From an uncultured Verrucomicrobiae bacterium (GTDB taxonomy: Bacteria > Verrucomicrobiota > Verrucomicrobiia > Chthoniobacterales > JAFAMB01), in contig CAWEXO010000013.1 of assembly GCA_963813025.1 (NCBI GenBank), positions 320,001-384,000 of the forward strand: DNA of 64,000 bases, written 5' to 3'. The notes beneath the pieces were generated by a model that saw only the letters and a program-made list of their open reading frames with translations, had not been told where the DNA came from and made no database searches. This document shows, one piece after another, positions 30,869 to 34,071 of this stretch (positions are counted from its first letter, which is position 1; every line of letters starts with the position of its first letter). The position numbers were made by a program, and so were the translations under genes.

Positions 30869-31550
30869 GAGCCATAACCGAATTTTGTGGATGAGGAGAT
30901 AAAGAAAGGCGCATCCTTTCAGTGAAGAAAAAAGAGCGGCATACTCACTCGAGGCGCCAAAAGAAAGATGTTCTCTGGTTTACAAGTTGATTGGTGCGTG
31001 AAGTTATTGACATGGGAAATAGAAGGTTAGGCGTTGTGCAGTTTGAGCACCCAGGAGCCGTGTTGGATCTGATGTTTCTGATGCAGCTCCGCGTCATAGC
31101 GGGTCCGGGTTTGCCACATCTTCCAGAGGATTTTGAGCCAGCGCTGGCCTAGGCACCGTAAGGCGCAGGGGTGAGTTTTGCCCTTTTTCGAAGGCTCTGG
31201 TAATAGGTGTCGGCCCAAGGGCAGGCGTGTCGGCTTCGGTCAGCCCAGAGGTGAATGGTAGATCGCAGGACTAAGTTGCACTGGGTGCGAAGTCTGACGT
31301 GATGGACGGGACCGGATTGATAGCTGACCGGAGCAGTCCCCCCGTAGCATTGCAGAGCCTGAGGGGACTCGAACCGATGACGGTCCTCCCCTAGCTCGCC
31401 TAATAGGGGGGGTGCGATTTTGGGGCCGGCTCCCGGCAAGGAGCCGAACAGTTCGTGATCGGGATGGTGCGCAAAGAGCTTTTCGATTTGCTGACTGAAC
31501 CTCCCCCGATTTGACGGACACGGATACCCAAGAGAAAGAGAAAGGATCTG

Positions 31551-31871
31551 ATGTCAGAGAAAAAGACCAATAAAGTCTACGATGAAGAGTTTAAACGCCA
31601 AGCGGTGGAGCTGCTGATTCACAGCGGTAAAGCCCAGGCGCAGGTAGCCCGAGAACTGGGCTGCAGCGACATGAGCCTGGGCACCTGGAAAAAGAAGTAT
31701 TTGCGAGCCATGGCGCCAGTCAAGGTCGATGGCCGTGAGCAGCGGCCCGAGGAAATGGCGGCTACGATCCGGCAACTGCAGAAAGAGAACGAGTATCTGC
31801 GCCGGCAGCGGGAGATCTTAAAAAAAGCTATGAGCATATTGGGCGAGGAACCGAATCCCGGTATGCGATGA
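31551..31871 (+). CDS. IS3 OrfA
   Basis: YDEEFKRQAVEL HTH; LQKENEYLRRQREILKKA. Confidence 0.92.
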   Translation: MSEKKTNKVYDEEFKRQAVELLIHSGKAQAQVARELGCSDMSLGTWKKKYLRAMAPVKVDGREQRPEEMAATIRQLQKENEYLRRQREILKKAMSILGEEPNPGMR

Positions 31872-32890
31872 TTGGAGAGCTTTCGGTGAATTACAAGGTG
31901 ATCGAGTGTTGCCAGGCGCTGGAGGTATCGCGCAGCGGTTACTATCAATGGAAAGAGGAGCGTAAGGGGCTGCGAGTGCTGGAGGAAGCCGAACTTCTGA
32001 ATGAGCTCGAAAAGATCTTTGCAGCTAATCAGGGTCGGTATGGTAGTCCCCGGCTGACGCGAGCTCTGCGCGAACAAGGCAGGCGAGTGGGGAAGAACCG
32101 GGTGGCGCGGTTGATGCGCCAGCAGAAGCTGGTCGCCCGGCAGAAACGAGCGTTCCGGCCCAAGACGACGGTGGCTGGAAAAGTCGCTTTCCCTAATCGG
32201 ATCGCGGAGATTGAGGCCAAGCGTCCCGATCAGATCTGGGTCAGTGACATCACCTACGTAGCGACAGTGGAAGGCTGGCTCTATCTGGCGATCATTCTGG
32301 ATCTGTTCAGCCGCCGTGTTGTGGGCTGGAAGTTGGGTGAGAGCCTGGAAGCCAGTCTCGTCGCCAGTGCTCTCCAGAACGCGCTGGTACTGCGCCAGCC
32401 TGCTCCTGGGCTATACTTTCATTCCGATCGGGGCAGCCAGTATGGCAGCCAAGTGGTGCAGAAGCCGCTCGAAGTGATCCAAGCCCTGCCCAGTATGAGT
32501 GGGGTGGGAAACTGCTACGACAACGCCAAAGCCGAAGCGTTTTTTAGCACGTTGAAAACCGAATGTTTCCCCGTTGGAAACGTCTTTTGCTCAAAAGCCC
32601 AAGCGAGGAGCGCGATTTTCGAATACCTCGAGGTGTACTACAATAACCAACGTCTTCACAGCGCGTTAGGTTATCAGACGCCTCGCCAATACGAAGCCGC
32701 TTACCGACCGAAAGAGAAAACAACTTTTTCTCCCGAAAAAGTTACAGCAACCCTCCCTGCAGAAGGTGAAACGAAGGTCAAAGTGAGCAAACGGAATAAA
32801 TGGAGGGTAGCCCGTAGGGAGGCGCCGTTTATGCCGGATTGCGATCTTGACCGCAGCGCAACCTTCTGCTTGCAAACCACCCAAGATTAA
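31868..32890 (+). CDS. IS3 OrfB DDE transposase
   Basis: YGSPR, WVSDITY, HSDRGSQY, GNCYDNA, LKTE; ATGA overlap with orfA. Confidence 0.93.
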   Translation: MIGELSVNYKVIECCQALEVSRSGYYQWKEERKGLRVLEEAELLNELEKIFAANQGRYGSPRLTRALREQGRRVGKNRVARLMRQQKLVARQKRAFRPKTTVAGKVAFPNRIAEIEAKRPDQIWVSDITYVATVEGWLYLAIILDLFSRRVVGWKLGESLEASLVASALQNALVLRQPAPGLYFHSDRGSQYGSQVVQKPLEVIQALPSMSGVGNCYDNAKAEAFFSTLKTECFPVGNVFCSKAQARSAIFEYLEVYYNNQRLHSALGYQTPRQYEAAYRPKEKTTFSPEKVTATLPAEGETKVKVSKRNKWRVARREAPFMPDCDLDRSATFCLQTTQD

Positions 32891-33739
32891 CTAAACAACC
32901 TAAACGTTTTCCGTGTCCGTTTTTTCGGGGCAAGTACAAACGATAGTCCTCCAGCTGCGTTTGCAGCACCCGTAGCTGCCTGGCACGCGTCACGGCCAGA
33001 CGGCTCTTAGCCAGTGTGAGAGCCTCCGAAGCACCAAATTCGGTACCTTTAGCGAAGAGCTCCAGACGCTTTTGATAGGTATTGGGTCGAGCCAGCTTAT
33101 GGGTGTGCAAAAACTTTTCCCATCGGCGTTTGCCGGCGTTGACTAAGGCTTGTGGCGTGGCAAAGGCTTCCACAAAGGCCCACGCTGCGGGCAGCGTCCA
33201 GTCCTCAAAAGCCGCCAGAGCAGTAGGATAATATTCATGCAGGGCAGCGATCAGTTGATTGACCAAGGCCGTGCGCTCTTCAATCAAGGCGATCTCGTCA
33301 CGGCACAGCAGGTGCAACTGCTCCAAAAGGGGATCTTGCTTTGAGAGCGGCTTCCAGGTGGAACCATCAAGACGAAGGGCGTCGGCAAAGCTCCACGCAT
33401 CTAAATGATCGCTCTTGGTGCCACTCGGAGCTTTGCGATTTCGGTACGCTCGAGCGGCTTTGGGGTTCAGCGGATAAATCGTGCAATCGGGTCTCTGAAG
33501 CAGTTGGTCGACGACGGCGCCTTGACTGGTTTCGACTGCCACTGCTAAAGGGGCAAAGCGGGCCGCTTGCTGGCGCCACTCTTGCCAGCCTTCGAGCGTA
33601 TGGGAAAAACTAAACTCGGTCACGATCTGGCCACCAGCGTTGACGACGACGACGTAATGATGCTGCTTCGCCCAGTCAAGACCGGCAAAGTGAGCTACAA
33701 GGGAATCAGGAGAAGACATTGCGCATTTCCGTTTGGAGG

Positions 33740-33930
33740 TTTGGGAGCTGTATCGCGCAGCATCAGCCTTGGCCTCAGTCCTGAGTCGACCTGATACAGG
33801 ATCCTCTTGGGATGTCGTTCTCTCAGACTTTGGGACGGAAGCCTCCGAACCGGCCGGTAATCTTTCTTGAGCTCTCGTAGAGCGGGATGCACCGGACCGT
33901 ACCGGTCCGCAGGCAAAGCTGCCAATCGCC
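33740..33930 (-). ncRNA. Candidate bridge RNA of IS110 element 2
   Basis: Ordered segments GGTGCATCC (33893-33885), AAGAAAG (33868-33862), AGAGAAC (33823-33817), GTATCAG (33797-33791) match target and donor junctions; ends approximate. Confidence 0.78.
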
Positions 33931-34071
33931 TTCTGACACTGCTTGGAGCTATTAACAACCCCAAGTCGAGTCGTGGCCAAGTTATGTACCGGCTCCGATG
34001 AATAATGCGGCCTGCAATGGTCCTTCTGCCGGCGCCGGTGCATAACTATGGAAGCCGTATCAGGATGCACC

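What the first reader, a model, noticed from the sequence alone, without database searches (positions are those of the whole stretch)
30966..34063. IS110 bridge RNA readable by eye: guides match the element's own target and donor
On the minus strand the rebuilt empty site is GGTGCATC-CT-TTCTT and the circle junction is CAGAGAACAT-CT-GATAC. The non-coding end carries, in order: GGTGCATCC (9/9 to left target), a GCTCT-ACG-AGAGC hairpin, AAGAAAG (complement of core plus right target), AGAGAAC..ACATC (left donor, imperfect) and GTATCAG (complement of core plus right donor). This is the target-loop then donor-loop layout described for IS621 bridge RNAs. Removing the IS3 and fixing the C-terminal frameshift should rebuild a programmable recombinase ortholog.
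Basis: partly seen in the sequence, partly recalled or inferred. Interest (0 to 1): 0.8.

Follow-up and report, generated by a model that had tools for sequence, protein, structure and literature searches.

The report
IS110 bridge RNA targeting another transposon
This is a real, but broken, copy of a known kind of RNA-guided jumping gene whose guide RNA aims it at the start of another jumping gene, and a few of its copies and relatives sit where a neighbouring element's guide points instead, which hints that these elements borrow each other's guides in nature.

Summary
Confirmed with corrections. 30966-34063 (minus strand) is an IS110-group element with an IS621-type bridge RNA, broken by an IS3 and a frameshift. 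In relatives the target guides track their own flanks: left 5.66/7 against 2.62 shuffled (n=101), right 4.54/5 against 1.48 (n=54). The handshake base also tracks (90 of 101). The target is the ribosome-binding site of an IS256 transposase, with 10 empty sites in the genome. IS110s that hit other insertion sequences are known (ISEc21). A copy with an intact reading frame exists elsewhere in the genome, so no repair is needed. That copy sits in a REP palindrome that its own guide does not match. Of 119 sites, 4 ignore their own guide, and 3 of these match another paralog's guide (9-11 of 12). In two cases the paralog is in the same genome or metagenome. I infer guide borrowing between paralogs that share a donor; seven paper searches found it only as engineered crosstalk. 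No expression or activity is shown. The scan noted other IS110 bridge RNAs in this genome before, not this one.

The parts
30966..34063 (-). IS110-group element, core CT to core CT (1653 bp in the uninterrupted copy C)
34062..34063 (-). Left core CT; followed by right donor GATAC (34061-34057)
30966..30976 (-). Left donor AGAGAACAT and right core CT
34064..34071 (-). Left target GGTGCATC (IS256 DNA; on + it lies between the ribosome-binding site and the GTG start)
30961..30965 (-). Right target TTCTT (IS256 DNA; 5' part of the ribosome-binding site on +)
33980..34047 (-). 5' stem-loop of the non-coding end (18-nt arms, 89% complementary)
33841..33914 (-). Target-binding loop domain: outer stem, 12+12-nt internal loop, inner hairpin 33883-33871
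33885..33893 (-). Left target guide (8 target bases + first core base; the shifted register)
33860..33868 (-). Right target guide (5 bases + core AG) and handshake bases AT that complement donor positions -2,-1
33777..33829 (-). Donor-binding loop domain with inner hairpin 33813-33801
33817..33824 (-). Left donor guide (in register; matches donor -9..-3)
33789..33797 (-). Right donor guide (5 bases + core AG) and handshake bases GT; the G complements target position -1
32939..33719 (-). Recombinase gene, 5' part (DEDD RuvC domain, D15/E63/D104/D107)
31027..31495 (-). Recombinase gene, 3' part (Tnp domain with the catalytic serine motif); frameshift at the G-run near 31180
31496..32938 (+). IS3-family element (1443 bp, 29-nt inverted repeats, imperfect 3-bp duplication) that interrupts the recombinase
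30980..30985 (-). Candidate -35 box of a promoter formed only at the circle junction (inferred)
34054..34059 (-). Candidate -10 box of the junction promoter, 16-nt spacer; weak here (77 of 100 relatives have TAnnnT, this one does not)
30869..36377 (+). Host IS256-family element (approximate ends), split by the IS110; its own transposase is broken and it also holds an IS630-family element

Best explanation
The element is an IS110-group bridge recombinase system. By analogy with IS621 (inferred, not shown here), it forms a circle that joins its two ends at CT and creates a promoter. The upstream bridge RNA binds the recombinase. Its donor loop reads the joined ends and its target loop reads a 15-bp site (8 + CT + 5), and recombination occurs at the CT core, helped by handshake pairing. 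Shown here: the ends, the guides, their co-variation with flanks, and that the site is the ribosome-binding site of an IS256 transposase. The element is therefore a parasite of a multicopy IS: it inserts antisense and cuts the transposase gene off from its left end. Inferred: because the donor is almost invariant across the clade, a co-resident paralog's guide RNA occasionally delivers an element to the paralog's target; this explains the copy in the REP palindrome. The window copy itself is dead as a protein source but keeps intact ends and RNA.
For: Protein: Pfam DEDD_Tnp_IS110 and Transposase_20. DEDD residues in 143 of 144 sequences and S320 in 136 of 144. A profile of 66 relatives hits IS621 (E 1.7e-21) and ISCro4. 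The model (pLDDT 91.6) matches only IS621/ISCro4 in its top ten. RNA: guide-flank match 5.66/7 vs 2.62+-0.11 and 4.54/5 vs 1.48+-0.14, with none of 10,000 shuffles close; donor-loop handshake base complements target -1 in 90 of 101 vs 35 shuffled; donor changes are mirrored in the donor guides (82-84 of 84 at -9..-3; 117-118 of 118 on the right). The handshake letters AU and GU are those of wild-type IS621 (PMC13626964). Target: 10 empty and 5 hit IS256 sites in the genome; L090 and L091 hit the same site in related IS256s, L092 a subterminal site, and the genomic paralog L009 the right terminal repeat (16 empty sites). Borrowing: 4 of 119 sites score <=4 of 12 to their own guide; 3 of them score 9, 11 and 11 to an unrelated guide, while only 6 of 13,040 unrelated pairs reach 9. 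L085 lies in the target of paralog L293/L297 of the same genome G696, while its twin L284 has an on-guide right flank. L115/L119 lie in the target of L107/L108; L108 and L119 come from one metagenome assembly. Copy C lies in a REP site hit by a paralog family (3 right ends in this genome), and its donor carries that family's base at -2. Crosstalk between co-expressed bridge RNAs was shown for engineered IS621 (10.64898/2026.04.29.721476).
Against: No RNA, circle or activity was observed; the read layout gave no circle joint and cannot show expression. No bridge RNA with a REP-matching guide was found in this 80%-complete genome; the matching guide comes from a family relative, G039, and scores only 9 of 12 on copy C's variant site. 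The genomic paralog L006 sits in a REP although its own, 2-nt-shorter loop does not match it. The borrowing cases are three, found after the fact, and relatives are not independent. In the consensus fold part of the donor guides is predicted to pair with each other. The second donor-loop handshake base does not co-vary (24 of 101 vs 21). The junction -10 box is weak here.
Confidence: 0.9

Rival explanations
1. Off-guide copies are ordinary mis-insertions by the element's own complex (mismatch tolerance, half-match or donor-like sites, or a liking for hairpin DNA), not borrowed guides.
For: Half-match insertion is described for IS621 (10.64898/2026.08.31.748434), and a target stem-loop aids ISPpu10 (abstract). 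L293 sits in a donor-like site, so this route is used in the clade. Copy C's site is a palindrome with partial likeness to both guide sets.
Against: The three sites score 3-4 of 12 to their own target guide and 0-5 of 12 to the donor, but 9-11 of 12 to one particular paralog's guide. Copy C is at the same base of the REP as three paralog ends. About 25 such REPs exist among some 494,000 CT sites.
Confidence: 0.25
2. The off-guide copies inserted on target and their guides or interiors were replaced later by recombination between paralogs; or the flanks are assembly joins.
For: L107 and L115 are 83% alike throughout, and no on-guide copy of L115 was seen. Left ends of the G696 paralogs are 90% alike over about 90 nt. 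All are metagenome-derived assemblies.
Against: Copy C is 99.0% identical to on-target copy B from core to core and shares no terminal alignment with paralog L006. Its guide also occurs on target in L090 (95% DNA), so the guide predates copy C. L280 is 99.9% identical to L284 to the last base. L115's flanks are not L107's flanks and recur identically in two assemblies.
Confidence: 0.12
3. The matches are chance or mere terminal repeats, and the non-coding end is only a leader.
For: Weak folding z-score, no Rfam hit, and an open frame runs through the whole end.
Against: Guides change with targets across 101 and 54 distinct guides, and stems keep pairing through changes.
Confidence: 0.02

Closest known systems
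IS621 bridge recombinase system (Durrant 2024, PMC11208160; Hiraizumi 2024, PMC11208158)
   Same: Upstream non-coding end, target loop then donor loop, CT core, DEDD plus serine, same fold, handshake letters AU and GU, donor ending AT, candidate junction promoter.
   Different: 415 aa against 328, 17-18% identity. Native right guide of 5 bases beyond the core against 2, and 8 left bases against 7. The left guide is read in either of two registers. Target is an IS256 rather than a REP.
ISCro4 / IS622 (10.1101/2025.05.14.653916)
   Same: Bridge architecture, a target of about 14 bp, handshake guides.
   Different: Distant protein. That screen drew on the IS621-like clade; whether this clade was among the 72 tested was not seen.
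ISEc21 (Siddiquee 2024, PMC11187229)
   Same: IS110-group element with an upstream guide RNA that targets another IS family; natural retargeting in a close relative (ISMch6).
   Different: ISEc21 hits the catalytic codons of IS3 transposases; this one hits the ribosome-binding site of IS256, and two relatives hit other sites of the same IS256.
IS4321/IS5075 (Partridge and Hall 2003; title seen in a reference list only)
   Same: Target the ends of other transposons, as the paralog L009 and relative L092 do.
   Different: IS1111 group, with Tn21-family targets.
Engineered bridge-RNA crosstalk (10.64898/2026.04.29.721476) and trans action of ISPpu10 (10.64898/2026.03.19.712850)
   Same: Non-cognate pairing of target and donor loops; recombinase acting on ends in trans.
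   Different: There one recombinase with designed RNAs; here natural paralogs 41-83% alike, inferred from insertion sites.

Membership tests
IS110 family, IS110 group | RuvC-like DEDD domain plus Tnp domain with catalytic serine | tested here: met
   (on intact copy C; the window copy is interrupted)
IS110 family, IS110 group | Long non-coding left end, short right end | tested here: met
   344 nt upstream and about 60 nt downstream
IS110 family, IS110 group | Insertion at a dinucleotide core without a target duplication | tested here: met
   empty and filled sites compared
IS621-type bridge RNA | Two internal loops, target loop before donor loop, in conserved stems | tested here: met
   consensus fold of 127 distinct loops with compensatory pairs; part of the donor guides is predicted paired
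IS621-type bridge RNA | Target guides co-vary with target (left guide like the top strand, right guide complementary to it) | tested here: met
IS621-type bridge RNA | Donor guides match and co-vary with donor | tested here: met
   few donor variants exist, so the signal rests on positions -8, -3 and +5
IS621-type bridge RNA | Both core bases paired by the left target guide | tested here: not met
   only the first core base in this element; in the shifted register the second is matched in 2 of 21 informative cases, in the other register 14 of 21
IS621-type bridge RNA | Handshake guides | tested here: met
   donor-loop first base 90 of 101; target-loop AT with donor AT 62 of 84, AC with GT 4
IS621-type bridge RNA | Promoter formed at the circle junction | tested here: inconclusive
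   TTG 17-20 nt before the core in 74 of 100 and TAnnnT in 77 of 100 relatives; this element has a weak -10
IS621-type bridge RNA | RNA is expressed, binds the recombinase and is reprogrammable | not testable with these tools
   only contigs were available
IS110 family | Circular intermediate | tested here: inconclusive
   junction absent from the assembly; no such joint in 4 runs of contigs

The most novel reading that the evidence does not exclude
IS110 paralogs with a shared donor form a guide-sharing pool in nature. An element can be delivered by a co-resident paralog's bridge RNA (whole complex or mixed target and donor loops) to that paralog's target, at about 3 of 119 sites here. This lets a parasite of IS256 reach new niches such as REPs. 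In addition, the same scaffold reads its left guide in two registers one base apart and switches between them repeatedly in evolution.
Probability: 0.6. Interest if true: 0.65.

Novelty: new member of a known kind. Interest (0 to 1): 0.5.

Why it matters
As a bridge RNA it is one more member of a known and heavily mined family, from a long-protein clade distant from IS621, with a natural library of about 120 guide-target pairs, a native 15-bp target and intact members ready for testing. Two observations go further. Off-guide copies that land in a co-resident paralog's target would be the natural counterpart of the crosstalk that limits multiplexed bridge editing; they say that orthogonality must come from the donor or core and give named pairs to test. 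The two-register reading of the left guide matters for guide design and off-target prediction. Three related IS110s aimed at three sites of one IS256 family illustrate transposon-on-transposon parasitism.

Tried and rejected
Rfam: no match at E<=1. Single-sequence PDB search: no hit; the profile found IS621. Single-sequence structure was poor (pLDDT 40) and was not used. Promoter scan of the linear intact copy: none. Sequencing runs: no holder with half the words. Four runs of contigs gave no circle joint; one RNA run has relative-derived contigs over 33773-34068, which cannot show expression. Search for a REP-matching guide in this genome by profile and by pattern: none; of 23 genomes with the pattern only G039 proved a bridge RNA. 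The genome's second IS110 family (about 29% identity, 10 copies) has other ends and did not match the bridge profile. Phylum-wide protein search at E<=1e-100 added one genome of 401. No protein residue clearly explains the two registers (best p 1e-4 among 2182 tests, uncorrected, on related sequences); the tree was the quick one because the careful search did not finish. 'Copy C is the founder that was later retargeted' was rejected because the same guide sits on target in L090. Look-ups of earlier findings by words and by sequence were empty.

Full report
Observation. The genome (4.42 Mb, 16 contigs, 80% complete) holds two more full copies, B and C (99.0% identical to each other), two 5' stubs and one 3' remnant. 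The predicted empty 15-mer occurs 9 times, plus 1 variant. The window copy is split by a 1443-bp IS3-family element and has a frameshift in a G-run. Contigs of three other runs carry the longer run, and one joins across the IS3, so whether the frameshift is a mutation or an assembly error is open. Copy B is frameshifted elsewhere. Copy C encodes 415 aa but has R at position 312, where 137 of 144 sequences have G. L090 is a 96%-identical relative on target.

Protein. Pfam gives DEDD_Tnp_IS110 and Transposase_20. D15, E63, D104 and D107 are kept in 143 of 144 and S320 in 136 of 144 sequences, gaps counted as misses. A profile of 66 relatives finds IS621 and ISCro4, and the alignment-based model (pLDDT 91.6) has only these in its top ten, at 16-18% identity.

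Bridge RNA test. I fetched the best 80 of 147 genome loci and the best 80 of 516 metagenome loci, and later loci from relatives. Ends were set from the conserved donor motif, not from the target guides. In one search, 176 of 199 bridge hits parsed (23 dropped for other loop lengths, gaps or a missing core) and one row per distinct guide was used. Left guide against the last 7 flank bases, best of two registers: 5.66 against 2.62+-0.11 in 10,000 shuffles (maximum 3.02; n=101). Right guide against 5 bases: 4.54 against 1.48+-0.14 (n=54); positions 6 and 7 do not match (6 of 53, 18 of 52). The base after the right donor guide complements target position -1 in 90 of 101 (35 shuffled); the next base does not (24 against 21). 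The two bases after the right target guide are AT with donor AT in 62 of 84 and AC with donor GT in 4. These are the handshake guides of IS621 (PMC11208158, passages; wild-type letters AU and GU in PMC13626964, passages). A consensus fold of 127 distinct loops puts both target guides in a 12+12-nt internal loop between stems that keep pairing through changes; part of the donor guides is predicted to pair with each other. Shuffles ignore kinship, but close kin (L091-L097) differ in guide and target together.

Two registers. Among 81 clearly assignable guides, 44 place the core at loop positions 9-10 and 37 one base later. With flanks not ending in C, the guide matches the last flank base in 21 of 21 and 20 of 21; the second core base is matched in 14 of 21 and 2 of 21. 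The label needs 16 changes on a quick tree of 66 proteins (at least 11 forced by starred branches; shuffled mean 21), so it switches often. The window element uses the shifted register. I saw no description of this in the passages read, but ran no search aimed at it.

Target. The site lies in the left end of an IS256-family element: on the plus strand the core falls inside GAAAGGA, 7 nt before a GTG that opens the transposase frame (the ribosome-binding role is inferred from spacing). Ten sites are empty and five bear this IS110 or a relic of it. L090 and L091 hit the same site in related IS256s, L092 (82%) a subterminal palindrome, and the genomic paralog L009 (57%) the right terminal repeat, with 16 empty sites. 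Across the clade 9 of 75 elements had a transposase-family frame as the longest frame within 300 nt (115 frames scanned), so most members aim elsewhere. Targeting another IS is known: ISEc21 hits IS3 transposase genes (PMC11187229, passages).

Off-guide copies. Copy C has the same guides as A and B but sits in a REP-like palindrome and carries G for A at donor -2. In one search, 243 of 255 bridge hits parsed (12 dropped, among them L006 with a 29-nt loop), giving 119 distinct sites and 124 guides. Own-guide scores were 9 or more of 12 in 105 sites, 6-8 in 10 (several with a visible one-base slip) and 3-4 in 4. Three of these four match an unrelated guide at 9, 11 and 11; 1 of the 115 others reaches 9; 6 of 13,040 unrelated pairs reach 9. 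L085/L280 lies in the target of a 66%-identical paralog of the same genome G696, while its twin L284 has an on-guide right flank (its left flank was not parsed). L115/L119 lie in the target of the 83%-identical L107/L108, two of them from one assembly. Copy C lies at the same REP base as three right ends of a paralog family in its genome; a member of that family in G039 has the REP-matching guide, and a family right end in G039 abuts the same REP half. Both handshake positions at copy C fit that family's RNA rather than its own, which favours delivery by the paralog's whole complex (inference). The fourth site, L293, is donor-like. Against: the REP-matching guide is not in this assembly, L006 is itself off-guide in a REP, L085 was first seen by eye, co-resident guides were fetched on purpose, and three cases are few. 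The Fisher value of 6e-5 overstates.

Mechanism. Shown: ends, guides, co-variation, target identity. From established work on IS621 and CazIS110-1: circle or copy-out, junction promoter, separate dimers on the two loops, serine strand exchange at CT (PMC11208160, passages; 10.1101/2025.10.25.684509, abstract and one section). Inferred: silencing of the IS256 transposase by the insertion, and guide borrowing made possible by a donor that is nearly invariant across the clade.

Literature. Seven searches found crosstalk between co-expressed engineered RNAs (10.64898/2026.04.29.721476, passages), half-match insertion (10.64898/2026.08.31.748434, abstract and one section), trans action of ISPpu10 (10.64898/2026.03.19.712850, abstract and one section), elements lacking their own RNA (10.64898/2026.08.14.744561, passages) and modular ISPpu9 (PMC12288879, passages). 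Passages of 10.1101/2025.05.14.653916 and PMC13604230 added nothing on this point. None of what I saw reports natural insertion at a paralog's target or an IS256 target. The library lacks most subscription papers and I opened no supplements; Durrant's tables may hold this clade.

Verdict. The IS256 parasitism is a new instance of known behaviour. The off-guide sites and the two registers are the parts a specialist would want to test. Interest 0.5.

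Noticed in passing
window 30869-36377: Four nested insertion sequences: an IS256 holding the IS110 (which holds an IS3) and an IS630-family element at about 35220-36337; the IS256 transposase has a stop and frameshifts.
   Followed up: partly
window 31833-31850 (minus) and L094: Relative L094 (79%) is inserted between orfA and orfB of an IS3, at a site nearly identical to a stretch of the IS3 that interrupts the window's IS110.
   Followed up: partly
L009 (G000:C3:82903-84540): Intact-looking paralog whose guides match its site in the right terminal repeat of the same IS256 family; 16 empty sites.
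   Followed up: yes
L006:1700-3310 (G000:C13:99197-100809): Frameshifted paralog in a REP variant; its target loop is 2 nt short and predicts a target that is absent from the genome. Possibly a fourth borrowed-guide case.
   Followed up: partly
G000:C13:491540-491700: Orphan bridge-RNA fragment of the L006 family with no recombinase behind it, beside another transposase-like frame.
   Followed up: partly
G000, 10 places such as C11:76365-77558: A second IS110 family (about 29% identity) in 10 near-identical copies with different ends and varied right flanks.
   Followed up: no
L293 (G696:C12): Element inserted in a site that resembles the donor junction with one extra base; it also seems to lack the two donor bases before the core.
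   Followed up: partly
G000 genome-wide: About 25 copies of a REP-like palindrome; the gene that spreads it was not sought.
   Followed up: partly
window 33720-34046 (minus): An open frame runs through the whole non-coding end into the recombinase in copies A, B and C; long open frames upstream are common in relatives' hits; probably incidental.
   Followed up: no
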